Numbered from the stretch's first letter, positions 9,109 through 64,000 are shown. The stretch is 64,000 nucleotides of DNA from Eledone cirrhosa (GCA_964016885.1 OZ024742.1:17794001-17858000), one strand, 5' to 3'. Notes: a model not told the origin generated them from the sequence alone. Numbers and translations: made by a program.

Positions 9109-9316
9109 ATATATATATATATATATATGTAGATAAATCTACCAAGAGTTTACGGTAGTGTCCAATCCGTATGAAGAACTCAATGTATTCCGGATATCAT
9201 GGAAAGAAGAGATGTAATGAAAAATCACTTTCGGTGAAAGATAAACGGTATACAGAGTCAAGATAAAATATTAAACAAATAATGAATAAACAATTCCTTA
9301 TATTAAACAAAAAAAG

Positions 9317-9470
9317 TTCATTATTTAACGATCGTTTCTAGGATATATATGTGTTAGAATTGGCATGCATATTCAACAGATCTATGTACAAAATTATACA
9401 AAATTATACAAACTATCAAGGTTAAATATACATACCAACACATATATACGCCGTCTTCAGAAATAATGAA
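9317..9470 (-). ncRNA. Type I hammerhead ribozyme in the 3' pseudo-LTR (family B, giant stem II)
   Basis: Stem I TTCATTATTT/AAATAATGAA; core CTGAAGA; 115-nt hairpin as stem II; GAAA; palindromic stem III ACGATCGT; cleavage triplet GTT. Confidence 0.75.
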
Positions 9471-10099
9471 GTATATTTATTGATAATAACAACAATTCAA
9501 AATTTCAGGTCCGTTTGGGAACAAAATTGACCAATGAAAACACAAAGGGTTAAATGCAGTTCGGTGTGTGTATATACATGTAAAACCCTTACACATATTT
9601 TACAAAAATGTATGTATAATTTGTATACGCATACTAAAAGGATGGATGCAAATACAAAATTTCAAGGTTAATGTCTCTGTAAGTTTATAATGCACAGATA
9701 AGATGCGTATTGACACACAAATATGAAAATATATTTTTTCATACTCACACATATCCGTACAATCACACATACACGCGCGTATATGCATAAATATACACAT
9801 AACCACGAACATACAAACACACACACACCCCCACTCACATTTATATATGTGGATATAAAATCATAAGCACATGGATATTAATTCACTCACATAAACACTG
9901 GCACACACATTTAGATCAAGATACAGAAATTAGGTGGGAGGGGGGGGGGAGGTCAGTATTCAACGGTCTGAGCAGACTGCCTAATATAGATGTATCTATA
10001 AACTAAGAAAATAAAAAATAATAAATAATAAATAAACATTAAAGAGGAAAGAATAGAAAGAAAAAAGAAAAAAGAAAAAAGAAAAAAGAAATATATCAA

Positions 10100-10103
10100 G
10101 AAA

Positions 10104-10138
<35 letters not shown>

Positions 10139-10355
10139 TACACATACATATATATATATATATATATACACACACATATACATATAATATACATATATAT
10201 ACACATAGACACACACACACACATACATATATATACACACATATACAAACACATACATACATATACACACATCCACACTAAAAACATACATACACACACA
10301 TATATAAACATATACATATACACACATACATACATATACACATATACATACAAAT

Positions 10356-10412
<57 letters not shown>

Positions 10413-10728
10413 TATGTATATACACGTACATATACACACACATATACATATAATCACACATACTATATAGACACACATATATATAACCACACACATACAT
10501 GCACATATACAACACTTACATACTAATATACATACAGATATACACATACATAGCTATATATACACACAAATATATACAGACTTACATATATACATACAGA
10601 CAAATACTTACGCATCTATATATCGGTATATACATACAAACACCACTACACTATCACACAACTTAGACATACAAAGAGAAAGGTATATACCTATACACAC
10701 ATACATATACAAATAGAAAAACATATAG

Positions 10729-10819
<91 letters not shown>

Positions 10820-11057
10820 CATACATATACACATACACACACATACACATACACACACATACATACATGTACACACACATAGAAATATATACGCATACAC
10901 ACATACACACATACATATAAAGTAATACACACACATACACCTACACGAACATACACATACACATATATAAAGATATATATACACACACACACACACACAA
11001 CACATACACACACACACATATATATAAAAAAAATAAATAATAAAGATATATACATAT

Positions 11058-11149
<92 letters not shown>

Positions 11150-11479
11150 ATACACACATACATAGACATACATGTACATACATACACGTACATCGATATA
11201 CATACATATATATATACACACATAGACATATACATACATACACACACAACTTACATACACACATATATATACATGTATATTCATACATAGAATTAGATAT
11301 ATAATCATACATATATAAGCACTTACTTATACTCATATATACAAATACATACGCATCCATATATGCGTATATACATAGAAACACCACTACAACCTCACCT
11401 AACTCAGACATACAAATAAAAATAAAAATAAAAAGGCATATGTATATACATATATACACGCATTAATAGAGATATATAT

Positions 11480-11549
<70 letters not shown>

Positions 11550-11784
11550 ACTCACATATATATATATAGATACCCACACACACATACCACCATAAATACA
11601 CATACAAACACCCACATATACATATATATACACACGTATATATATATATATATATATACACACACATAAAAAACAGACATGCACATATATATATATATTT
11701 TTTTACACTTATATATACACATATTATATACACATACACAACCTCACATATACACACATACACATAAGTTATATTATAATAATA

Positions 11785-11823
<39 letters not shown>

Positions 11824-11910
11824 CATATATATATATATATATATACATTTAAACATATACATACATATATACACACATACGAATATAGACATATATTCAC
11901 ACATAGACAC

Positions 11911-11947
<37 letters not shown>

Positions 11948-12470
11948 TACATATACACAGACACATATACACACTCACATATATATATGTGTGTGCACAC
12001 ACACATATATACACACATACACACATATACACATAAACACATATATGTGCATACATGCACACACACACACATATATCCACATAGATACGAAGATAGACAT
12101 ATAAATAGAGAGACATACACATATATATACACAACACACATACACACACATACATACACACACATATACATATACATATATATACACATATATATATTTT
12201 TATATATACATATATACACATATATATATATATACATATATATATATACATACACATACACATACACACATTCACATACACATACATATATAAATGCATA
12301 TATACACATATATATACATACATACACACACTCATATATACACACACAATCTTACATTCATATTTGCATGCGCATATATGTATTTTTATATTCAGATATA
12401 AATACCCAAACCTATATAGACACCTACCTACATATATATTCATACATACACGCTTACAAATACAGATGAT
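10100..12470. repeat. Degenerate (CA)n/(TA)n low-complexity tract inside the PLE 3' UTR
   Basis: About 2.4 kb of mixed CA/TA/CATA dinucleotide repeats; source of many spurious ORFs. Confidence 0.9.
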
Positions 12471-13606
12471 AATAGTATGGGGGAAAGGGGGGGTTTGGAG
12501 AAGGGGATCATAGTAAATATATGTTTCAAGAAACATAGAATGTTTTCCGTATCTTGATCCAATGTATGTTTTTACATAGTTTCAGTGTTAGGAAATACAA
12601 TAAACAAGAACTAAGGCAAAATCTATGCATCTCAAAATAAACAAGTATACCATTAATTATATGTTAACTAAACCAAAGATAGTTAACATATTGATTTCTA
12701 AGGTGTAAATTAGTTAGGTTTATAATATTTGAAGCAGAATTTTGAAGTTAAATAGTAGTAGAATATTAATTATAGTATAACTAAATTAAAGTTAATAACG
12801 TTATGGTATCAATATTAGGAAATGAGTTTAGTAATAGGGAAAAAACAAATAAAGTATTACATCAGTAGTAGAATATAAATTATAGGTTAACTAAATTAAA
12901 AATTATATATTTATTTCTATAGTATATGTTAATTAGGTATATAATACATAAAACAGATATTGTATTTTATCAATAGCAGAATATAATTATATGCAAATAG
13001 AAATCAAAATCAATACACATACATATACATATACATACACATACATATATACATATATATACACATATATATATATATACATATATACACATATACATAC
13101 ACACACACATACACATACACATATACATATACATATTTTTTCCCAAAAAAAAAAAAAAATTGCATAGAATATATTAACTAGGTATATATCCAAAACACAT
13201 CCCATTCTATGATTACATGACATTCTGCAATTCGTCTGTATAAGGATACTAATTTTAAGCAAATTAAATTAAATTTTTAGGTTGATTAAAATTAAAACCA
13301 AATTATAAATATATTTCTAAAATGTATATTAATTAGGTCTATAATAGTAAAAATTATTTCTCTGTCATTGGATACACGATATTATTTTGTTATATTTTAT
13401 CTGTAAAAAAATTATAATAAAAGGTTTAAATAAATTAAAATTAATCTATAAATTAAATTACTAAGTATATATTAGTAATATTTAAAGGTTTTTCACAATT
13501 TATGATTACATAATATTTTATATTCTCATCTGTAATAAAATTTTAATTAAATTAAATTTATAGGTTAACTAACATTTAAATTAAATTAATTTCTAAAATA
13601 ATGTTA

Positions 13607-16070
13607 TTAATTAGGTTTATAATATTTAAATGTTTTTTTTAGTTTATGATTACACGATATAATTAATTCCTGTCGTTTATTTAATAAGATATCCTTAGAC
13701 TTCATTATTTCAAATAGTTCTTGGGAACATAATCTACATTCATTTCTATTATTTTGATAAGGGGTGGCTCTTTTGAGCACACTCCAGGTCAAATCATATT
13801 CTATATTCTTATTTTTATAACTATTGATTTTTTCTGCTAGAGATGTTGTATTAGCCAGTGCGGCATTTTTAAAAACTATGCTTGTGGGTATTAAACCTTG
13901 TCTTAAAATTGTTAGAGGTAGCTCCTATATATGAGCAAATAGAATCTTTAGTTTTAACATTACATTTATAGACTATGTTGTTAACAAGACAATTCCCTTT
14001 TAATGGGCAGTTTGCTTTGTTTCTACAGTTACATCCTTTCGTTAATTCTATATTTGAGGAGATATTATGGTTAATTTGATGTACTGGTGGTATACTTATG
14101 GTTTTCTTACATTTATATGCATTATAGGCACTTATATTTTGTTTTATGTTATTTGTTGTAGAGTATGAGAATTTAACTGTAGACCTATTTAAGATTTGAT
14201 GGTATTTGTGGTTTGGCGGGAAGTTTTTCTCAAGGATATAAAAAAATTTTTTAGCAATATTATCCTTAACTTGTAAATTAAAAGGAGCATTATACCAAGT
14301 AACCCGTCTATTACGGTTTCTATGTTGTTTATTATTTTTATTATTTTTATAGGTTGTATCGTGATTTTTACTAGGAGGATTAATGTTAATGATCTCACCA
14401 CAACCATTTTTAGTTATATTTGTAGATTTAGGTGTTTTATCCTTTTTATTAGGAGTTTTATTATTAATATTTATTAGAGTTGTATGATGAGTAGTTTTTT
14501 GAGAGTTACTATACTTTATATTAGAAGATTTGGTATTTTGGGGTATAGTGTGGGTGGCATTTAGGTGTGTACTTTTCATTTGGTGTTTGTTGGTAATATT
14601 ATGTTGTATGCTTTCAGTATTTTTAGTAGAAGGTATATACTCTAATCTATTTTTGTGGCCACTTCTATCTAGAGCTTCGTTATAGAAGGTCGCATTTTTA
14701 TCAAATACATCTTGGTTAGAAGAAAGGTTAGAAATTCTAAGTGATATATTATATGCAAGGTTTTTAAGGATAGATTTAGGGTGATTAGATTGTGAGTGTA
14801 TGTAATGTAAGTTTTGGTTAGGTTTATGGTAAGGTTGGTAGATACCCGTAGCTAAATCTAAAGTTATATCTAGGAAATTTACTACTTTACTTATTTTTTC
14901 AAAAGTAATATTAAGATTATAATAGTCTTTAAGGAAAGTTCTAATATGTTTTTTGTTTTTTTCAATTTCTGAAAGGCTAAGGTTGTTAGAAAGAAGAAGA
15001 CAGTCATCACGATATAAACCACCTTTGAGGTGGGGAAAAGAGGCATTTATGTTGAAAAGGAGAAAGAGGCCCACAAGATCAGTAATTTGGGCGGAATCGC
15101 TTGAACCCATAGTAATATCAAAAAGATTACTATATGTGTTTCTGGTCCAGTATTCATTCTGAAATTCAATAAGTGTTAGTCTAGCATGTGTAATAATATT
15201 AATGTCATCCAAAGTTAAGTTAGATCTATTTTTAGCAAATATCAATGCTTTGTTCAGGAGTATAGGTGATATAGAAGAATAGTAATTATCTATATCAAAT
15301 TGTAGGAATGAAGCAGAAGATTTACACCTAATATTTTTAAACCAGTTAATTACCTGGGAGGTGTTTTCCCAGAGTGGTAAAATAACGTGTTTTCTTATTT
15401 GTGGGATGACTCTATCTAAAATTTTTTTGCTAATTATTCCAATATCTGATTTGGAGGGACATATAAGTCTAATAGAAGGATTTGAGTTAAAGTTAGATTT
15501 GTGATCCTTCAGGTTGAAGTGTGGTCTTTTCAATGCCAAAGGTTCAGTTCTATCTTCAATGTTTAGTTTTTTTACTATGTTGTGTGTTTTGTTGTTGATG
15601 TTGGTGAGTGACGCATTATTAGATTTTTTATAATTTTTTCTGAGTTCTTTATATATGAACTCGTTATAATGTTCAATATCCATATGATACAAGTTACCAG
15701 TTTTGTCCGAGTGGACATGGATTTTTTTAGACTTTTTTAGGTCCAATAGGGTAGAATCAAGGTCCTTTTGAAAGACGGATTTATACTTTTTAAATTTGAG
15801 GTGTTTAATTAAATTAAAAAGGTCTTTCTCGAAGTCTTCAAGTAAAAAGTTGTGTGGTGGATTCTTGTAAGTATTGAAATCATACATATATTTCCGATCT
15901 GCTTGTTTAGATTTTCTATCGAAGTGGTAGGCTCTCCATCTAACTCTTCTGATAAAATTATTAGTTTTCTGAATCATAAGGAGTAAGAAGTCATCCTTAG
16001 AAGGTATTGGTATGTTTTTTAAGGAGGTTCCTAAATATTGTTTTTCCATTGTGATATGGATGATGGACAA
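13607..16070 (-). CDS. PLE polyprotein (reverse transcriptase + GIY-YIG endonuclease), about 820 aa if one +1 frameshift at 13866-13875 is corrected
   Basis: RT motifs LQFDIDNYYSSI, ITMGSSDSAQITDLVG and GGLYRDD; thumb YHKPN...HSQSNHP; linker CNCRNKANCPLKGNC; EN motifs IVYKC...YIGATSNNFKTRFNTH. Removing one T gives HSFKNAALANTTSLAEKINSYKNKNIEYDLTWSVL, joining the 13607-13792 ORF (CRLC...LLNKRQELIISCNH). Confidence 0.9.
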
Positions 16071-16392
16071 TTGAAAGAGCTCAACTAAATGTATATGGGT
16101 TTAGAAAATCATACATATATATATGTATATACATAAATATAAAATTAATACACACATACAGTACAAAAATACGAATATTTCCGTGAAAATAGGAGCAAAA
16201 TTATGTAGATAAATCTACCAAGAGTTTACGGTAGTGTCCAATCCGTATGAAGAACTCAATGTATTCCGGATATCATGGAAAGAAGAGATGTAATGAAAAA
16301 TCACTTTCGGTGAAAGATAAACGGTATACAGAGTCAAGATAAAATATTAAACAAATAATGAATAAACAATTCCTTATATTAAACAAAAAAAG

Positions 16393-16546
16393 TTCATTAT
16401 TTAACGATCGTTTCTAGGATATATATGTGTTAGAATTGGCATGCATATTCAACAGATCTATGTACAAAATTATACAAAATTATACAAACTATCAAGGTTA
16501 AATATACATACCAACACATATATACGCCGTCTTCAGAAATAATGAA
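16393..16546 (-). ncRNA. Type I hammerhead ribozyme in the 5' pseudo-LTR (family B)
   Basis: Copy of 9317-9470 (offset 7076). Confidence 0.75.
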
Positions 16547-17065
16547 GTATATTTATTGATAATAACAACAATTCAAAATTTCAGGTCCGTTATCTTGATC
16601 TAAATGTGTGTGCCAGTATTTATGTGAGTGAATTAATATCCATGTGCTTATGATTTTATATCCACATATATAAATGTGAGTGGGGGTGTGTGTGTGTTTG
16701 TATGTTCGTGGTTATGTGTATATTTATGCATATACGCGCGTGTATGTGTGATTGTACGGATATGTGTGAGTATGAAAAAATATATTTTCATATTTGTGTG
16801 TCAATACGCATCTTATCTGTGCATTATAAACTTACAGAGACATTAACCTTGAAATTTTGTATTTGCATCCATCCTTTTAGTATGCGTATACAAATTATAC
16901 ATACATTTTTGTAAAATATGTGTAAGGGTTTTACATGTATATACACACACCGAACTGCATTTAACCCTTTGTGTTTTCATTGGTCAATTTTGTTCCCAAA
17001 CGGACCTGAAATTTTGAATTGTTGTTATTATTAATAAATATACTTCATTATTTCTGAAGACGGCG

Positions 17066-17246
17066 ATGGATTGGCAGTATCGGTAGAGGGTCGGACGCCA
17101 TGCTTTTCAGCACAGTTACGTCCCTTTACGGACCGAGTTCAAATCGCGCCGAGGTTGACTTTGCCTTTCATCCTTACGGGGTCGATAAAATAAAGTACCA
17201 GTAATACACTGGATTAATTGCTGGCCTTGTGCCAAAAGTAGAAACA
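17066..17246 (+). mobile_element. tRNA-derived SINE (family A) inserted in the PLE inverted arm
   Basis: 19-bp target-site duplication ATTATTTCTGAAGACGGCG at 17047-17065 and 17247-17265; A box TGGCAGTATCGG; B box GAGTTCAAATC. Confidence 0.88.
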
Positions 17247-17397
17247 ATTATTTCTGAAGACGGCGTATATATGTGTTGGTATGTATATTTAACCTTGATA
17301 GTTTGTATAATTTTGTATAATTTTGTACATAGATCTGTTGAATATGCATGCCAATTCTAACACATATATATCCTAGAAACGATCGTTAAATAATGAA
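17247..17397 (+). ncRNA. Type I hammerhead ribozyme, inverted-arm copy (family B)
   Basis: ATTATTT, CTGAAGA (17254-17260), GAAA (17376-17379), CGATCG, TT, AAATAAT; stem I is shortened by the SINE insertion. Confidence 0.65.
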
Positions 17398-17442
17398 CTT
17401 TTTTTGTTTAATATAAGGAATTGTTTATTCATTATTTGTTTA

Positions 17443-17527
<85 letters not shown>

Positions 17528-50755: not shown

Positions 50756-50829
50756 ATATATATATATATATAAAAATGCAAGTATGTATGTATACGTACA
50801 TACATATATGCATACAGACGTACAGTAGC

Positions 50830-50901
<72 letters not shown>

Positions 50902-51031
50902 GTGAGGTTTTTTTTACAAAATGAAAAATAACCGAGGTGTCCTACACGAGTGGAAGTATAAAGAAAAAGGGATGAAATCGAAAATGCAACTGAAGTCTTA
51001 TTTTTTTTTAAATATATATATTTATTTGGTT

Positions 51032-51069
51032 CCTTTACCGGTTTCGCAGTTCTTCTGCTTTTCAAAAGG
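51032..51069 (-). ncRNA. Minimal type I hammerhead with U3-A8 core (family C)
   Basis: Reverse complement of 52186-52223. Confidence 0.65.
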
Positions 51070-51579
51070 TGAGTTGAGATGGAGGGTCTGTGGTTTTTCT
51101 CACATCTGGTTGGTCTCTAAATGTTACTTGTTTTATATGGAAAAACTGGCTCGAAAACCAGGTTTTTCGAGAAGTAATTTGATTGGTTTGTCAATAATTA
51201 TAATAAATTTCGCGCCAGTTCGCGTTACAATAGTTCTTCAAATAAGAGAGGGGGGTGGTTGTCACAGGTTGTTTTTTCATATATGAGTGTTTGAATTTCT
51301 TTTTACTTGAAAAAATGAGGCTCACGAAGGCTTTTTTTTGGTTGGTTATAAATGAAATTTGGCTGTCACGTGAACAAGTTTTCATTACATTTTTGCGCCC
51401 TTATTTGGAAAACTATTCTGTAGTCTATAGTGAATGTTATGACAATGGAGAGATAGTGGTCAAGGGAAAAGGGATTGGGAGAAATGTTCTGGTTCAGTGA
51501 ATATGGCCAGCTGTCAGAGTTCAGGTGTCAGAGTTCAGATTTTCTATTGAGACTGAAGATATGTGTTTATTTGTGTGCT

Positions 51580-51616
<37 letters not shown>

Positions 51617-52185
51617 ATGTGTGTATTGGAAGATGATTCTATTAGTAGACACACACACACATATACACACACACAAGCACACAAATAAACACATATCTTC
51701 AGTCTCAATAGAAAATCTGAACTCTGACACCTGAACTCTGACAGCTGGCCATATTCACTGAACCAGAACATTTCTCCCAATCCCTTTTCCCTTGACCACT
51801 ATCTCTCCATTCTCATAACATTCACTATAGACTACAGAATAGTTTTCCAAATAAGGGCGCAAAAATGTAATGAAAACTTGTTCACGTGACAGCCAAATTT
51901 CATTTATAACCAACCAAAAAAAAGCCTTCGTGAGCCTCATTTTTTCAAGTAAAAAGAAATTCAAACACTCATATATGAAAAAACAACCTGTGACAACCAC
52001 CCCCCTCTCTTATTTGAAGAACTATTGTAACGCGAACTGGCGCGAAATTTATTATAATTATTGACAAACCAATCAAATTACTTCTCGAAAAACCTGGTTT
52101 TCGAGCCAGTTTTTCCATATAAAACAAGTAACATTTAGAGACCAACCAGATGTGAGAAAAACCACAGACCCTCCATCTCAACTCA

Positions 52186-52223
52186 CCTTTTGAAAAGCAG
52201 AAGAACTGCGAAACCGGTAAAGG
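52186..52223 (+). ncRNA. Minimal type I hammerhead with U3-A8 core (family C)
   Basis: CCTT-TTGAAAA-GCAG-AAGAA-CTGC-GAAA-CCGG-T-A-AAGG: 4-bp stems I and II, palindromic ACCGGT stem III, GTA cleavage after 52219. Confidence 0.65.
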
Positions 52224-52312
52224 AACCAAATAAATATATATATTTTTAAAAAAAATAAGACTTCAGTTGCATTTTCGATTTCATCCCTTTTTCTTTATAT
52301 ATATATATATAT

Positions 52313-55020
52313 AAATTGGAATAAATGCTCTGAAATAGCGATATATATGTGAATATAGACATAGAATATTCGAAAATATTCTGTATGTTTACAATAAACA
52401 TTTTGAAGACCTAATCGCTATAGAATAGAATACGTCACGTATTACAATTAGATTCTCGATAAAAGCAAGGGAAGTAAGTCTACGCGTTTCATTCTTGTTA
52501 GAATTCATCAGGACTACATATCCAGTGCTTTCATCGAGAATGACACAGCTAGAGACTTATAGAATACTTAGCTGTGTACAGGAACTGGTTTGAAAGAGCT
52601 CTTTCAAACCAGTTCCTGTACACAGCTAAGTATTCTATAAGTCTCTAGCTGTGTCATTCTCGATGAAAGCACTGGATATGTAGTCCTGATGAATTCTAAC
52701 AAGAATGAAACGCGTAGACTTACTTCCCTTGCTTTTATCGAGAATCTAATTGTAATACGTGACGTATTCTATTCTATAGCGATTAGGTCTTCAAAATGTT
52801 TATTGTAAACATACAGAATATTTTCGAATATTCTATGTCTATATTCACATATATATCGCTATTTCAGAGCATTTATTCCAATTTCTAATTTCTGCCGGAC
52901 CGGCAACCGCTCTTTCAAACCAGTTCCTGTACACAGCTAAGTATTCTATAAGTCTCTAGCTGTGTCATTCTCGATGAAAGCACTGGATATGTAGTCCTGA
53001 TGAATTCTAACAAGAATGAAACGCGTAGACTTACTTCCCTTGCTTTTATCGAGAATCTAATTGTAATACGTGACGTATTCTATTCTATAGCGATTAGGTC
53101 TTCAAAATGTTTATTGTAAACATACAGAATATTTTCGAATATTCTATGTCTATATTCACATATATATCGCTATTTCAGAGCATTTATTCCAATTTCTAAT
53201 TTCTGCCGGACCGGCAACCGCTCTTTCAAACCAGTTCCTGTACACAGCTAAGTATTCTATAAGTCTCTAGCTGTGTCATTCTCGATGAAAGCACTGGATA
53301 TGTAGTCCTGATGAATTCTAACAAGAATGAAACGCGTAGACTTACTTCCCTTGCTTTTATCGAGAATCTAATTGTAATACGTGACGTATTCTATTCTATA
53401 GCGATTAGGTCTTCAAAATGTTTATTGTAAACATACAGAATATTTTCGAATATTCTATGTCTATATTCACATATATATCGCTATTTCAGAGCATTTATTC
53501 CAATTTCTAATTTCTGCCGGACCGGCAACCGCTCTTTCAAACCAGTTCCTGTACACAGCTAAGTATTCTATAAGTCTCTAGCTGTGTCATTCTCGATGAA
53601 AGCACTGGATATGTAGTCCTGATGAATTCTAACAAGAATGAAACGCGTAGACTTACTTCCCTTGCTTTTATCGAGAATCTAATTGTAATACGTGACGTAT
53701 TCTATTCTATAGCGATTAGGTCTTCAAAATGTTTATTGTAAACATACAGAATATTTTCGAATATTCTATGTCTATATTCACATATATATCGCTATTTCAG
53801 AGCATTTATTCCAATTTCTAATTTCTGCCGGACCGGCAACCGCTCTTTCAAACCAGTTCCTGTACACAGCTAAGTATTCTATAAGTCTCTAGCTGTGTCA
53901 TTCTCGATGAAAGCACTGGACATGTAGTCCTGATGAATTCTAACAAGAATGAAACGCGTAGACTTACTTCCCTTGCTTTTATCGAGAATCTAATTGTAAT
54001 ACGTGACGTATTCTATTCTATAGCGATTAGGTCTTCAAAATGTTTATTGTAAACATACAGAATATTTTCGAATATTCTATGTCTATATTCACATATATAT
54101 CGCTATTTCAGAGCATTTATTCCAATTTCTAATTTCTGCCGGACCGGCAACCGCTCTTTCAAACCAGTTCCTGTACACAGCTAAGTATTCTATAAGTCTC
54201 TAGCTGTGTCATTCTCGATGAAAGCACTGGATATGTAGTCCTGATGAATTCTAACAAGAATGAAACGCGTAGACTTACTTCCCTTGCTTTTATCGAGAAT
54301 CTAATTGTAATACGTGACGTATTCTATTCTATAGCGATTAGGTCTTCAAAATGTTTATTGTAAACATACAGAATATTTTCGAATATTCTATGTCTATATT
54401 CACATATATATCGCTATTTCAGAGCATTTATTCCAATTTCTAATTTCTGCCGGACCCGCAACCGCTCTTTCAAACCAGTTCCTGTACACAGCTAAGTATT
54501 CTATAAGTCTCTAGCTGTGTCATTCTCGATGAAAGCACTGGATATGTAGTCCTGATGAATTCTAACAAGAATGAAACGCGTAGACTTACTTCCCTTGCTT
54601 TTATCGAGAATCTAATTGTAATACGTGACGTATTCTATTCTATAGCGATTAGGTCTTCAAAATGTTTATTGTAAACATACAGAATATTTTCGAATATTCT
54701 ATGTCTATATTCACATATATATCGCTATTTCAGAGCATTTATTCCAATTTCTAATTTCTGCCGGACCGGCAACCGCTCTTTCAAACCAGTTCCTGTACAC
54801 AGCTAAGTATTCTATAAGTCTCTAGCTGTGTCATTCTCGATGAAAGCACTGGATATGTAGTCCTGATGAATTCTAACAAGAATGAAACGCGTAGACTTAC
54901 TTCCCTTGCTTTTATCGAGAATCTAATTGTAATACGTGACGTATTCTATTCTATAGCGATTAGGTCTTCAAAATGTTTATTGTAAACATACAGAATATTT
55001 TCGAATATTCTATGTCTATA

Positions 55021-55024
<4 letters not shown>
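52313..55024 (+). mobile_element. 311-bp hammerhead-containing tandem array with inverted head copy (non-LTR retrozyme-like, family D)
   Basis: Units start at 52599, 52910, 53221, 53532, 53843, 54154, 54465 and 54776 (last one partial). 52313-52598 is an exact inverted copy of 52599-52884. Flanked by (TA)n. Confidence 0.93.
52656..52745 (+). ncRNA. Type I hammerhead ribozyme, first of eight plus-strand array copies (inverted copy at 52452-52541)
   Basis: CTGATGA 52686-52692; stem II ATTCT-AACA-AGAAT; GAAA 52707-52710; stem III ACGCGT; GTA cleavage after 52716; stem I GTAGTC/GACTTAC extended by ATTCTCGATGAAAGCA/TGCTTTTATCGAGAAT. Confidence 0.9.
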
Positions 55025-55083
<59 letters not shown>

Positions 55084-55087
<4 letters not shown>

Positions 55088-55520
55088 GCACACATACATA
55101 TATGTACGTATCAGTTTAGCGAACATTTATTATAATGCTCGCTTTGTCCGTTTGTAAACAAACGGACAGCCTGATTTATGCCGTACGGTGTTAAGGCAAC
55201 CACGTCACCTTTTTGTTCAACACTGACACAGGAACGATGTACTAGTTTCAAGCTTGTTAGCTATCGTCAGCACCGTATACCCTTCTGCCAGATGGTTGAA
55301 CGTTCGAAAGTATATACTGGCAGAAGGGTATACGGTGCTGACGATAGCTAACAAGCTTGAAACTAGTACATCGTTCCTGTGTCAGTGTTGAACAAAAAGG
55401 TGACGTGGTTGCCTTAACACCGTACGGCATAAATCAGGCTGTCCGTTTTTTTACAAACGGACAAAGCGAGCATTATAATAAATGTTTGCTAAACTGATAC
55501 GTACATATATATATGTGTGC

Positions 55521-55576
<56 letters not shown>

Positions 55577-55995
55577 GCTACTGTACGTCTGTATGCATAT
55601 ATGTATGTACGTATACATACTTGCATTTAAGTAAGTGCCGTACTAAGAGTGAGAAATGAAATTTCATTTCATTCTATTCCATTTTATCGTTTTCGGTGCG
55701 CCTGGCCGACTGAACTCACTCGATATGCAAATTACGCTGCTCAGCCGTTAATTTTCATAAGGAAAGTATATACTTTCGAACGATCAACCATCTGGCAGAA
55801 GGGTATACGGTGCTGACGATAGCTAACAAGCTTGAAACTAGTACATCGTTCCTGCGTCAGTGTTGAACAAAAAGGTGACGTGGTTGCCTTTACACCGTAC
55901 GGCTTAAATCAGGCTGTCCGTTTGTTTACAAACGGACAAAGCGAGCATTATAATAAATGTTCGCTAAACTGATACGTACATATATATATGTATGC

Positions 55996-56041
<46 letters not shown>

Positions 56042-56147
56042 GCTACTGTACGTCTGTATGCATATATGTATTACGTATACATACATACTTGCATTTAAGT
56101 AAGTGCCGTACTAAGAGTGAGAAATGAAATTTCATTTCATTCTATTC

Positions 56148-56152
<5 letters not shown>
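55084..56152 (+). mobile_element. 475-bp hammerhead-containing tandem dimer with inverted head (family F)
   Basis: Plus-strand units start near 55317 and 55792; 55084-55305 is an inverted partial copy; a further inverted piece lies at 50774-50833. Confidence 0.82.
55332..55374 (+). ncRNA. Type I hammerhead ribozyme (family F; other copies 55807-55849 on + and 55234-55276 on -)
   Basis: ACGGTG-CTGACGA-TAGCT-AACA-AGCTT-GAAA-CTAG-T-A-CATCGT; palindromic stem III ACTAGT; GTA cleavage after 55368. Confidence 0.82.
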
Positions 56153-56183
<31 letters not shown>

Positions 56184-58224: not shown

Positions 58225-59372
58225 CGTTTCTGAATTTGTTTAGCAAGATTCTTTATCTGAAATCGTGTGTTGAGACCGATATTGTTATACTTTGGGAGGG
58301 TCATGTTGCCAATAAGAAACACACGCACCAGTTGCTTTCACTTCAATTTATTATAATAAATTTATAATAAGTTTATAAATTTATAAATTTCTGGTTGGTT
58401 GGTTGGTTCCACAACCAGATAGTTGTTTATATATTGTCAAAGTTCCTTCGTCACACATTCTGTGACCTCCTCAGTGACTGGGGATTCTTTTCTTTGTTTT
58501 TTGTGCCTCTCCTTTGTTCTGTCCTATGCCATCTTGTTTTTATGTGTGTCAAAACAAAGAAAAGAATCCCCAGTCACTAAAGAGGTCACAGAATGTGTGA
58601 CGAAAGAACCCCGAGAATATATAAACAACCATCTGGTTGTGGAACCAACCAACCAACCGCAAATTTATAAATTCCTAAATTTATAAATTTATTATAATAA
58701 ATTGAAGTGAAAGCAACTGGTGCGTGTGCTTCCTATTGGCAACATGACCCTCCCAAGCATAACAATATCGGCTTCAACACACGCCCTCAGACAAAGAATC
58801 CTGCCAAACAAATTCAGAAACGAGATATATATATATATGTATATATATATATCATCATTGTCGTTTAATGTCTACTTTCCACCCTAGCGTGGGTTAGAAG
58901 GGTTTGTCCCATATGAGGCAAATTGGGTTGGGTGACCATGTCTTGGTTCATATAGGACTGTTTCTGGCTGGTTTTCTACGGCTGGATGCCCTTCCTAACA
59001 CCAACCACATTTACTGTGTGTGCTGGGGGCTTTCTGCTGTGTCTCCTACACAACCACTTTACAGTGTGGGCTGGATAAAAATGTATGATGCATGTATATG
59101 TGTATAAACTGTTGAGTTACCACAAGGCCTCTTCCCCATCTTGAAGATTCTATGCACAATCTTCAATATATGACTACCTATATTAGTAACATATCTTTGT
59201 CTTCTCTCTCTCTTTATCAGTTACAGGTTTCTCCCTCTGGTACTCAATCCTCAGTGTTGGTCTCGTCTGTACATTTTACACATCACTGGTAAGGCACCTC
59301 TTTTCTTTCTTTCTCCTCCCCCCCTCTATATGGATGCTGTGTGTGTGTATATATATATATATGTATATATAT

Positions 59373-59417
<45 letters not shown>

Positions 59418-59574
59418 TATATATAACGAAGGAAATGTGGTAAGGAACCAGATGGACCATAACGCACCAAAGTACTCAATACTTAAGGTAGTAGAGTGGG
59501 TAATAGGAACGAGTAGGACCCCGACGGCTGAGCTCAAGCCGTTTCGACGGCTAATTCTGGACTAATATATATAC

Positions 59575-61502: not shown

Positions 61503-62020
61503 ATATATACATATATATATACACACACACACACAGCATGCATATAGAGGGGGGGAGGAGAAAGAAAGAAAAGAGGTGCCTTACCAGTGATGTGTAAAAT
61601 GTACAGACGAGACCAACACTGAGGATTGAGTACCAGAAGGAGAAACCTGTAACTGATAAAGAGAGAGAGAAGACAAAGATATGTTACTAATATAGGTAGT
61701 CATATATTGAAGATTGTGCATAGAATCTTCAAGATGGGGAAGAGGCCTTGTGGTAACTCAACAGTTTATACACATATACATGCATCATACATTTTTATCC
61801 AGCCCACACTGTAAAGTGGTTGTGTAGGAGACACAGCAGAAAGCCCCCAGCACACACAGTAAATGTGGTTGGTGTTAGGAAGGGCATCCAGCCGTAGAAA
61901 ACCAGCCAGAAACAGTCCTATATGAACCAAGACATGGTCACCCAACCCAATTTGCCTCAAATGGGACAAACCCTTCTAACCCACGCTAGGGTGGAAAGTA
62001 GACATTAAACGACAATGATG

Positions 62021-62060
<40 letters not shown>

Positions 62061-62598
62061 CTCGTTTCTGAATTTGTTTGGCAGGATTCTTTGTCTGAGG
62101 GCGCGTGTTGAAGCCGATATTGTTATGCTTGGGAGGGTCATGTTGCCAATAGGAAGCACACGCACCAGTTGCTTTCACTTCAATTTATTATAATAAATTT
62201 ATAAATTTAGGAATTTATAAATTTGCGGTTGGTTGGTTGGTTCCACAACCAGATGGTTGTTTATATATTCTCGGGGTTCTTTCGTCACACATTCTGTGAC
62301 CTCTTCAGTGACTGGGGATTCTTTTCTTTGTTTTGACACACACAAAAACAAGATGGCATAGGACAGAACAAAGGAGATGCACAAAAAACAAAGAAAAGAA
62401 TCCCCAGTCACTGAGGAGGTCACAGAATGTGTGACGAAGGAACTTTGACAATATATAAACAACTATCTGGTTGTGGAACCAACCAACCAACCAGAAATAT
62501 ATAAATTTATAAATTTATTATAAATTTATTATAATAAATTGAAGTGAAAGCAACTGGTGCGTGTGTTTCTTATTGGCAAAATGACCCTCCCAAAGTAT

Positions 62599-62639
<41 letters not shown>

Positions 62640-62644
<5 letters not shown>

Positions 62645-64000
62645 ATGCTTTGGGAGGGTCATGTTGCCAATAAGAAACACACGCACCAGTTGCTTTCACT
62701 TCAATTTATTATAAATTAAATTTATAAATGTAGGAATTTATAAATTTCCGGTTGGTTGGTTGGTTGGTTCCACAACCAGACGATTGTTCATATATTGTCA
62801 AAGTTCTTTCGTCACACATTCTGTGACCACTTCAGTGACTGGGGATTCTTTTCTTTGTTTTTGTGCCTTTCCTTTGTTCTGTCATACGCCATCTTGTTTT
62901 TGTGTGTGTTGTGTGCTTAGTTTGCGCATGTGTTACATCCGGGTGTCTGTGTGTGTTTATATTTGTTTATTTATTTGTTTATTTACATGTTACTGGTTGG
63001 TTGTTTGTTCTATGTGTGTGTGTGTTTTCATTTGTCCTTAATTGTAAGTTGTGATGTTGCTATTCCATTCATGTTTTCTATTTAATTTTGGTTGGAGTTC
63101 ATTTATGTTTATTGCCTCTGTGATTTGTCTAAACATTGCGTCTTTTCTGTGTGTAGATTCTATTTTTATTTCTATGTTCTCTAATTTACCCTTATGTTCT
63201 ATTTTAGCATGTTGGTGGAGTACAGATGATTCTTTACTATCTTGAAGCTCTCGCCAGTGTTCATTTATCCGTTCCCCTATACTACGAGCTGTCTCACCTA
63301 TGTACACTATATTTTTGTGTCTACATTGTCCTTCAGTACATCTTATGCTATATACTACATTTGTAGTTTTACAGTTAATATGGGGGCTTAGTTTACAGAT
63401 TATAGATTTCTTATCAATACAGGGAGGTATTGCTAATAAATGTTTTTATGGAGGTACCTGGTCTTTCTACTATCTTAATATTGAGTTTATGTTTATCTAG
63501 GGCCCTTCTAAATTTGTAAGCTAATTCACCTCTAGGGGTTGTATCGATGAACATTACATCTGGTATTTATTGCTATCATACCATGAGTTTATTCTATTAA
63601 CCTTATTCCTAGTTCTTTCTATTCTATTCCAAAATTTGCTCCTATACAAGGGGCAGGTCCCATTTGTATCATTATTTACCATTTTTCCCATTCGGTTCTG
63701 GCCCCTCTATATACTCTGATTTTATCTCTCTGATTGTAACCAGAGAACTGCATACGGTGGATGAAGTGTTGTATGTGTCTCTCTAGTTCTTTGGGGTTGC
63801 ACATGCGGGACACGTTTCTCATCACCCGTACCAAATCCGCAATCAGTATGTTGATTTTGGTATGGTCCGAAACAGCTGAGTTTCGGTGGATCAGATATTT
63901 TGAAGTCATGGGTTTGGCATAATGGGAATGGAGGATTTTTTTTTTGTTATTAATGGTACCTAACAAGAGCTCTGTGTCTAGTACAGGTAATCGATGGTTG
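62640..64000 (-). mobile_element. 3' part of a decayed Penelope-like element (Nematis-like) with its pseudo-LTR
   Basis: 62640-62910 is homologous to the repeats at 58280-58550 and 62120-62330; coding remnants lie upstream; the element runs off the window edge. Confidence 0.85.
63038..64000 (-). pseudogene. Frameshifted PLE RT-thumb/linker/GIY-YIG coding region
   Basis: Fragments across frames: LPVLDTE..HYAKPMTS..SA..RVMRN..MQFSGY; CPLYRSKFW; VMFIDTTPRGEL; CKTTNVVYSIRC..C..VYIGETARSIGERINEH..RQITEA..LNRKHEW. At least three frame breaks. Confidence 0.87.

What the first reader, a model, noticed from the sequence alone, without database searches (positions are those of the whole stretch)
52313..55024. 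Near-identical 311-bp hammerhead tandem array: a candidate self-cleaving circular-RNA (retrozyme) element
Seen: 7.8 head-to-tail monomers of exactly 311 bp, with only two variants found by eye (T>C at 53921, G>C at 54457). Each has a canonical type I HHR, with predicted cuts after 52716, 53027, 53338, 53649, 53960, 54271, 54582 and 54893. The rest of the monomer is rich in hairpins (ACACAGCTA/TAGCTGTGT; AGAATATT-TTCG-AATATTCT; ATAGCGAT/ATCGCTAT; TGCCGG-A-CCGGCA) and has no ORF of 60 aa or more. Established: metazoan non-LTR retrozymes are tandem 150-400-bp type I HHR repeats that yield circular RNAs, and a short palindromic stem III (ACGCGU here) favours dimeric cleavage between neighbouring copies. 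Inference: the array is a very recent rolling-circle reverse transcript of a 311-nt circRNA, integrated into (TA)n by a PLE RT/EN such as the one at 13.6-16.1 kb. I do not know whether this family has been described.
Basis: partly seen in the sequence, partly recalled or inferred. Interest (0 to 1): 0.9.

Follow-up and report, generated by a model that had tools for sequence, protein, structure and literature searches.

The report
Two-armed hammerhead retrozyme insertion
A 311-base repeat carrying a hammerhead-ribozyme motif sits at more than a thousand places in this animal genome, mostly as two back-to-back runs of near-identical copies, a layout likely made when a Penelope-type retrotransposon enzyme copied one small RNA circle round and round from both sides of a DNA cut.

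Summary
The array is real, but it has two arms: an inverted 0.92 copy (52313-52598) back-to-back with 7.8 forward copies (52599-55024), inside a (TA)n run. It belongs to a young family: 15,301 hammerhead copies, about 1,260 tail-type ends. Most loci are head-to-head multimers (27 of 37 loci not picked for both ends). One outer end lies near monomer position 166, the other near 131-140 (84 of 85; one masked): the inverted copy plus one-sided 30-40-bp tail of Penelope-like elements (PLEs). Both arms share one haplotype (71 of 73; 13% expected), locus-private variants fill every copy of both arms, single-copy variants are hardly ever mirrored (1 versus about 34), and arms cross the cleavage site cleanly (837 of 844). 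Best reading: twin-primed rolling-circle reverse transcription of one monomeric RNA circle by a PLE enzyme. Retrozymes and their PLE link are in print; this insertion anatomy was not found in 8 searches. Cleavage and circles are untested. The likeliest partner is a Neptune-like PLE with a similar 38-nt tail, not the PLE at 13.6-16.1 kb.

The parts
52313..52598 (-). Inverted arm, 0.92 monomer; outer end at monomer position 168 (tailed, T-type end)
   Evidence: perfect 286-bp palindrome arm; phase map
52599..55024 (+). Forward arm, 7.8 head-to-tail 311-bp monomers; outer end at monomer position 131 (short, S-type end)
52598..52599 (.). Inversion junction, 2-nt GC microhomology, both arms stop at position 193; the same junction recurs independently at L103
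52664..52742 (+). Type I hammerhead motif of first forward copy: CTGATGA 52686-52692, stem II ATTC/GAAT with loop TAACAA, GAAA 52707-52710, palindromic stem III ACGCGT, predicted cut after 52716; repeats every 311 bp
52455..52533 (-). Ninth hammerhead motif, in the inverted arm
52847..52882 (+). Tail segment between the two family-wide end sites (positions 131 and 166), inferred reverse-transcription start sites; conserved in the older family 3 (33 of 46 nt) and similar to the tail of a Neptune-like PLE (24 of 46 nt)
52296..52312 (.). Left (TA)n target remnant
55025..55084 (.). Right (TA)n target remnant
50895..52296 (.). Neighbour in the same TA run: 5'-truncated head-to-head insertion of a Neptune-like PLE, with a U3/A8 hammerhead-like motif in each arm, one tailed and one short end
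50773..50832 (-). Outer remainder (short end) of the left arm of an older hammerhead retrozyme (family 2), whose internal (TA)n hosts the PLE fragment and the array
55085..56153 (.). Rest of the family-2 retrozyme (475-nt monomer, head-to-head, tailed end at 56153)

Best explanation
This is one insertion of a young, dispersed hammerhead-repeat family, built of two back-to-back multimer arms, that was likely made by twin-primed rolling-circle reverse transcription of a single 311-nt circular RNA by a Penelope-like element (PLE) enzyme. Shown in the sequence: two arms, fixed unequal outer ends in (TA)n, one haplotype per locus, microhomology at the inner junction. Inferred steps: (1) an array is transcribed, the hammerheads cut it into monomers (probably as dimers) and a host ligase closes them; (2) a PLE RT/GIY-YIG protein, probably a dimer, binds the circle near positions 120-170 and cuts both strands of a (TA)n site; (3) the two target 3' ends prime at positions about 166 and about 131-140 of the same RNA; (4) each RT runs round the circle for 0.3 to 27 turns, through the sealed cleavage site; (5) the two cDNA ends are joined by microhomology or short fill-in and second strands are made. 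The most likely partner among the PLE families examined is a Neptune-like family with 796-aa RT+GIY-YIG frames (about 45% odds).
For: Copy number: 15,301 exact hammerhead matches, control 0; 1,262 tail-type and 1,249 short-type ends, controls 0. On the listed part of contig C1, 63 of 63 facing end pairs combine one end of each type, none like-with-like. Loci not picked for both ends: 15 of 17 (BLAST set) and 12 of 20 (one-end set) are two-armed; 26 of these 27 have one end of each type, one is N-masked. 164 of 170 outer ends abut TA-rich flank. Same haplotype on both arms in 71 of 73 loci with at least one full turn per arm, 12.6% expected from 25 haplotypes. 13 variants private to one locus fill every copy of both arms in 12 of 85 loci, e.g. 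24 of 24 copies in L088; this rate (0.15 per locus) matches the single-copy substitution rate per monomer (0.14), as a one-monomer bottleneck predicts. Single-copy substitutions in the span read by both arms: 62, with 1 mirrored pair against about 34 expected for multimer templates. 837 of 844 passes through the cut site are identical to the locus majority over 12 nt; only 1 of 160 arm inner ends lies at the cut site, 2.6 expected. Microhomology of 2 nt or more at 38 of 56 insert-free junctions against 18% for random joins. Fixed variants keep predicted pairs more often than single-copy ones (7 of 13 against 13 of 57, p = 0.03). PLE papers describe the inverted 5' copy and one-sided 30-40-bp tail (PMC8557442; PMC3846280) and show a PLE protein that cuts and extends both strands and starts at two adjacent internal RNA sites (PMC11167929). 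Neptune-like partner: RVT_1 + GIY-YIG, short end TGTCTTAA|TA, tailed end CATTTTCCAA|TA, 38-nt tail, 24 of 46 nt identical end-anchored, p = 0.0006, copies 98.8% alike against 1.0% divergence between family-1 loci.
Against: No RNA evidence of cleavage, circles or expression. Rfam score far below cut-off. Exceptions that fit a multimer template or a template switch: L071 (variant mirrored in the first turn only), L082 (both arms carry haplotype A for two turns, then B), L120 (arms differ), L059 (two variants repeat 7 turns apart), L056 and L060 (recurrent variants). 10 of 97 loci are one-armed as mapped. The mirrored-variant test loses force if single-copy variants are assembly errors or arose after insertion. 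Catalytic-core conservation is not significant (0 of 25 fixed against 4 of 104 single), nor is broken-versus-rest (p = 0.07). Partner similarity is short, AT-rich and post hoc (46-nt window chosen after seeing it; local-alignment p = 0.027); not all PLE families were seen. In the Anolis PLE the hammerhead cut was not needed for insertion in vitro.
Confidence: 0.68

Rival explanations
1. PLE twin priming as above, but on an uncleaved linear multimeric read-through transcript of an existing array; the hammerhead and circles are not needed for copying.
For: L071 and L082 show the same first-turn variants on both arms, as a mixed multimer would give; the Anolis PLE uses uncleaved RNA in vitro (PMC11167929); clean passage through the cut site is also expected.
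Against: Only 1 mirrored pair against about 34 expected; private variants fixed in all copies arise at the per-monomer rate; 25 haplotypes, each homogeneous per locus, need repeated one-monomer bottlenecks; fixed variants favour the RNA fold.
Confidence: 0.17
2. A short head-to-head insertion (or a DNA circle) was expanded afterwards at the DNA level by unequal crossing-over, conversion or rolling-circle DNA replication, as Li et al. 2026 suggest for retrozyme arrays.
For: Block repeats of variants in a few long arms (L059, L056, L060); Li et al. discuss local amplification.
Against: Both arms are multimeric and of unrelated length (Spearman 0.12, p = 0.26); nearly all single variants occur once, with no nested sharing; arrays are about 0.05% diverged inside, leaving little time; private variants fill both inverted arms.
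Confidence: 0.07
3. The inversion comes from self-priming or fold-back: one arm is a copy of the other arm's cDNA or of an antisense transcript (Arkhipova et al. 2013 model).
For: The window's own junction is a perfect palindrome; the model is in print for PLEs (PMC3846280).
Against: Only 3 of 80 junctions have both arms at the same position (window, L046, L103); single-copy variants are not mirrored; the two outer ends are different fixed sites.
Confidence: 0.05
4. Assembly or amplification artefact (fold-back chimeras, collapsed or expanded repeat).
For: The window holds several perfect inverted repeats; the window's own junction was not bridged by any listed contig.
Against: Fixed unequal ends at more than 1,200 sites, locus-specific haplotypes, the same layout with diverged arms in older families 2 and 3 and in PLEs; the monomer is held by runs of 4 studies.
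Confidence: 0.03

Closest known systems
Metazoan non-LTR retrozymes (Cervera and de la Pena 2020, PMC7229834; Li, Clavereau and Pollet 2026 preprint 10.64898/2026.07.22.740005)
   Same: Tandem 150-450-bp units, type I hammerhead in each, low GC, no ORF, self-paired fold, weak palindromic stem III like the axolotl ribozymes that cut as dimers; the common variant has a U.U mismatch at the base of stem II as in axolotl HHR_Amex2; PLE partner proposed.
   Different: In the sections read, retrozymes are described as head-to-tail tandems; there is no head-to-head two-arm layout, no fixed tailed/short end pair, no evidence on the template molecule and no named partner from end sequences. Their circles and cleavage were shown by experiment; here they are not.
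EN+ Penelope-like elements, insertion signature (Craig et al. 2021 PMC8557442; Arkhipova et al. 2013 PMC3846280; Frangieh et al. 2024 PMC11167929)
   Same: Inverted 5'-truncated copy head-to-head, 30-40-bp tail at one end only, (TA)n target, two adjacent internal start sites, hammerhead upstream of the start sites.
   Different: No ORF; both arms are multimers of up to 27 and 19 turns of a 310-nt unit, not partial tandems; canonical C3/G8 hammerhead with extended stem I instead of the minimal PLE type.
Non-autonomous Chlamys PLEs such as MRC1 (PMC8557442 passage)
   Same: Non-autonomous, multicopy head-to-tail insertions, 3'-end similarity to autonomous families.
   Different: Most Chlamys lack hammerheads; no circle or two-arm analysis in the passage seen.
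L1 twin priming (recalled from own knowledge, no call)
   Same: Both target strands prime on one RNA and the cDNAs are joined by microhomology, giving a 5' inversion.
   Different: L1 primes first at a poly(A) end and second at a variable internal site on a linear RNA; here both sites are fixed, internal and 26-40 nt apart, and each arm is a multimer.

Membership tests
Non-LTR retrozyme | Tandem repeat with 150-450-bp unit | tested here: met
   311-bp unit, 7.8 copies; median 9.1 copies per locus in 85 loci
Non-LTR retrozyme | Type I hammerhead motif in every unit | tested here: met
   full core, stems I-III by motif and fold; Rfam below cut-off
Non-LTR retrozyme | GC below 50%, no protein coding, no LTR layout | tested here: met
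   GC 35%, longest stop-free frame 59 aa; PBS and PPT not searched for
Non-LTR retrozyme | Dispersed at many loci | tested here: met
Non-LTR retrozyme | Highly self-paired monomer | tested here: met
   circular fold z = -3.8, 59% paired
Non-LTR retrozyme | Self-cleavage in vitro | not testable with these tools
   bench test; only 1 of 9 Xenopus dimers cut in Li et al., so it cannot be assumed
Non-LTR retrozyme | Accumulation of unit-length circular RNA | not testable with these tools
   needs Northern blot, RNase R or raw RNA reads
Non-LTR retrozyme | Target-site duplication, long when present | tested here: inconclusive
   both flanks are (TA)n, so a duplication cannot be read
PLE-mobilised insertion | Inverted copy head-to-head at the 5' side | tested here: met
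   27 of 37 loci not picked for both ends
PLE-mobilised insertion | 30-40-bp tail at one end only | tested here: met
   63 of 63 end pairs; 84 of 85 mapped loci, one masked; offset 26-40 nt, mode 35
PLE-mobilised insertion | AT-rich or (TA)n target | tested here: met
   164 of 170 ends; 29 of 30 in the BLAST set
PLE-mobilised insertion | End sequence shared with an autonomous PLE pLTR | tested here: inconclusive
   24 of 46 nt with the Neptune-like 796-aa family, 10-16 of 46 with three other PLE families; post hoc; no BLAST-level homology
Autonomous PLE | RT and GIY-YIG ORF | tested here: not met
   no ORF in the monomer

The most novel reading that the evidence does not exclude
Each of more than a thousand insertions is a frozen record of one PLE enzyme dimer copying one ribozyme-made RNA circle from two start sites at once. 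This would be direct genomic evidence for rolling-circle reverse transcription of a natural circular RNA into an animal genome, would explain the PLE inverted repeat and one-sided tail by twin priming on a single RNA, and would name the Neptune-like PLE that drives it.
Probability: 0.55. Interest if true: 0.82.

Novelty: new variant of a known kind. Interest (0 to 1): 0.68.

Why it matters
How animal retrozymes move is open: the PLE link rests on co-occurrence and pLTR trees, and copying from circles is a hypothesis (PMC7229834 discussion; 10.64898/2026.07.22.740005). How PLEs form inverted repeats and tails is also open (PMC8557442, PMC11167929). This family gives countable answers to both from sequence alone and supplies a compact test system: a 310-nt RNA, two mapped start sites, a (TA)n target and a candidate enzyme with intact frames. 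About 15,000 copies (roughly 4.7 Mb) of a likely self-cleaving RNA also matter for this genome's repeat load. If true, a circle-to-multimer integration reaction is of interest for genome-writing tools.

Tried and rejected
No RNA holder listed; this says nothing on expression. Laying contigs: X4, X5 and X6 each gave one 340-nt contig (310 + 30, cyclic), run kind unknown; a tandem gives the same shape, so it is not used as evidence for circles; X1 may be the source sample; the window's junction was not bridged by a listed piece. Apparent junction hot spots at positions 4, 90 and 261, first read as run-off at the cut site, were artefacts of using the window monomer as yardstick and vanished with each locus's own copy. 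32 one-base deletions at positions 260 and 287 were chunk-edge artefacts, removed. The Hydra-like PLE at 9127-17451 as partner: young (99.0% DNA identity, many 830-aa frames) and TA-flanked, but no hammerhead found, ends about 136 nt apart, best BLAST E 0.07; a 22-nt look-alike motif lies in the opposite orientation and scores like the reverse control (89 against 81). Two other Neptune-like families: tails of about 58 and 65 nt, no end similarity. No earlier scan notes. Lunse et al. 2017 (PMC5785218) not held; supplement of PMC7229834 unreadable: its figures S6 and S9 may show related elements or a similar model.

Full report
Observation. The interval 52313-55024 holds two arms. 52599-55024 is a head-to-tail run of 7.8 monomers of 311 bp with two variants, 53921 and 54457. 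52313-52598 is a perfect inverted copy of 286 bp, so the element starts with a palindrome centred at 52598|52599. Both outer ends meet (TA)n. Every monomer has CTGATGA, stem II ATTC/GAAT with loop TAACAA, GAAA, the palindrome ACGCGT and a GTA cut site; the inverted arm adds a ninth motif. The circular monomer folds at -67.3 kcal/mol, z = -3.8 against 100 shuffles, with stems I and II formed at 0.76-0.99 probability. Rfam gives nothing at gathering score and Hammerhead_HH9 at 17.8 of 52 bits. Below, position 1 is the first base after the cut (window 52717).

Family size. The window lies at C3:17794001-17858000 of a 3.0-Gb genome. A degenerate pattern over the hammerhead has 15,301 exact matches, control 0. 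Two junction patterns count 1,262 ends at position 165-168 followed by TATATA and 1,249 ends at 131 or 140 followed by TATATA, controls 0. These are lower bounds. The organism was not given; the repeat make-up suggests a marine invertebrate (guess from own knowledge, not tested).

Architecture. Of the 92 and 100 ends listed on C1 up to 217.8 Mb, 63 facing pairs lie within 20 kb; all 63 combine one tailed (T) and one short (S) end. I mapped 97 loci: the window, 16 from the BLAST list, 60 of the 63 pairs and the first 20 of 66 unpaired ends. Among loci not picked for both ends, 15 of 17 and 12 of 20 have two head-to-head arms; 26 of these 27 are S+T and one is cut by an N gap. 85 of 97 are simple minus-then-plus; dropped were 10 one-armed loci, L047 (extra inner inversion) and L075 (stray block). 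Arms reach 27 and 19 turns, medians 4.5 and 3.4, lengths uncorrelated. 164 of 170 outer ends face TA-rich flank. Inner junctions (80 of 85 resolved) spread over all positions, with 1 of 160 arm ends at the cut site against 2.6 expected; 38 of 56 insert-free junctions have 2 nt or more of microhomology against 18% for random joins; 24 of 80 carry inserts; only 3 of 80 are true palindromes. The window's palindrome is therefore the exception. This layout is the PLE signature: an inverted 5'-truncated copy and a 30-40-bp tail at one end (PMC8557442 Fig. 2 legend; PMC3846280). A purified Anolis PLE cuts and extends both strands, is predicted to be a dimer, and starts at two adjacent internal RNA sites that bracket the tail (PMC11167929).

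Template. In 73 loci where each arm covers a full turn there are 25 haplotypes; both arms match in 71, against 12.6% for independent draws. 13 variants seen at one locus only fill all copies of both arms in 12 of 85 loci. Non-fixed substitutions occur at 0.14 per monomer (116 in 249,687 bp, 81 loci; L040, L064, L082 and L120 left out); if each insertion passes through one monomer, private fixed variants should arise at about this rate per locus, and 0.15 is seen. If templates were multimer transcripts, about 34 variants should be mirrored in the 234 turns read by both arms; 1 is. 837 of 844 passes through the cut site are clean, which argues against jumps between cut linear monomers. Fixed variants keep predicted pairs more often than single-copy ones (7 of 13 against 13 of 57, p = 0.03), while broken-versus-rest (p = 0.07) and core conservation (0 of 25 against 4 of 104) are not significant. 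Against the simple picture: L071 and L082 share first-turn variants on both arms, L120 has unlike arms, and L059, L056 and L060 repeat variants within an arm. L071 and L082 favour one template molecule and one start unit for both arms, but a multimer or a switch between circles. All four combinations of the variants at 89 and 260 occur (63, 12, 5, 1 loci, plus one 89T; the window is the single G/G one), which points to recombination or recurrent change. The mirrored test fails if single-copy variants are assembly errors.

Local history and relatives. The array sits in the internal (TA)n of an older hammerhead retrozyme (family 2, 420-540-nt monomer; 50773-56153), beside a truncated head-to-head Neptune-like PLE (50895-52296). 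Family 2 also forms head-to-head multimers with two end types about 60 nt apart (read by eye in 15 loci, not counted formally). Family 3 (2,518 first-look candidates, 95-98% alike) is 77% identical to positions 60-156, ends at the same ATTCA|TA site and at an analogous tailed site, so the start region is the conserved part.

Partner. Four PLE families were compared by their ends. A Neptune-like family with 796-aa RVT_1 + GIY-YIG frames has a U3/A8 hammerhead-like motif (that this is a natural active variant is recalled, not checked), head-to-head copies, a short end TGTCTTAA|TA, a tailed end CATTTTCCAA|TA and a 38-nt tail. End-anchored identity to the monomer's last 46 nt is 24 of 46 (p = 0.0006), against 10-16 for the three other PLEs and family 2; the window was chosen after seeing the likeness. 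Its best-scoring copies are 98.8% alike, like the 1.0% spread of family 1. This is a lead, not an assignment; other PLE families were seen only in passing.

What is known. Non-LTR retrozymes, their circles, dimer cleavage and a proposed PLE-driven copying of circles are in print (PMC7229834, parts 2-4 of 6 read, supplement unreadable; 10.64898/2026.07.22.740005, parts 1-3 of 5 read, supplements closed; PMC7761336 and PMC5680766, passages). PMC11167929: parts 1-2 of 4 read. PMC8557442: passages and section 11. PMC3846280: passages. Eight full-text searches (listings and abstract starts only) found no report of two-armed retrozyme insertions, of the S/T end pair in a retrozyme, or of same-template evidence; hammerhead + Penelope + head-to-head gave 0 papers. 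Subscription papers, Repbase and Dfam were not searchable, so the family may already have a repeat-library entry.

Verdict. A real, young non-LTR retrozyme by every sequence test; cleavage and circles untested. Odds: retrozyme with working ribozyme 0.9; PLE-mobilised 0.9; both arms from one RNA 0.85; monomeric circle as usual template 0.7; named partner 0.45. The class is known; the insertion anatomy makes two open mechanisms directly testable. Interest 0.68.

Noticed in passing
window 9127-17451: Young Hydra-clade-like PLE (743-aa frame here, EN frameshifted; 830-aa frames elsewhere) with no hammerhead found, although Craig et al. call hammerheads universal in that clade; ends about 136 nt apart; full 6.65-kb units occur in tandems of 4-5 (C1:183.74 Mb, C6:49.53 Mb), hinting at rolling-circle copying of a large unit without a canonical hammerhead.
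   Followed up: partly
window 50773-56153: Family-2 retrozyme (about 2,200 first-look candidates) with an internal (TA)n that is itself a target: here it took up a PLE fragment and the family-1 array. Its monomer holds an octamer ATGCAAAT, a possible snRNA-type promoter element (recalled from newt satellite 2, untested).
   Followed up: partly
window 51001-52254 and L199, L200-L225, L308-L313: Several Neptune-like PLE families carry hammerhead-like motifs with a TTGANAA (U3/A8) core and palindromic ACCGGT stem III; a CTGANGA search misses them.
   Followed up: partly
window 61900-64000: Older Neptune-like PLE end (GIY-YIG 63038-63445) with hammerhead motif, inverted repeat and about 58-nt tail; duplicated in inverted form at 58279-59425.
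   Followed up: partly
window 25953-48735: 22.8-kb satellite of a 31-bp unit with strong strand skew (GC skew 0.82).
   Followed up: no
L082, L071: Both arms change haplotype after the same number of turns: either a mixed multimer template or a coupled switch of both RT sites.
   Followed up: partly
L060 junction: 272 bp of unrelated sequence captured between the two arms.
   Followed up: no
L233, L236, L239: A further small hammerhead element (CTGATGA TTTC TAAA GAAT GAAA) with stem II close to family 1, also in head-to-head form.
   Followed up: no
runs X4, X5, X6: Runs labelled as three other organisms each hold a single cyclic 310-nt contig; two carry a haplotype that is rare in this genome. 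Run kind unknown.
   Followed up: no
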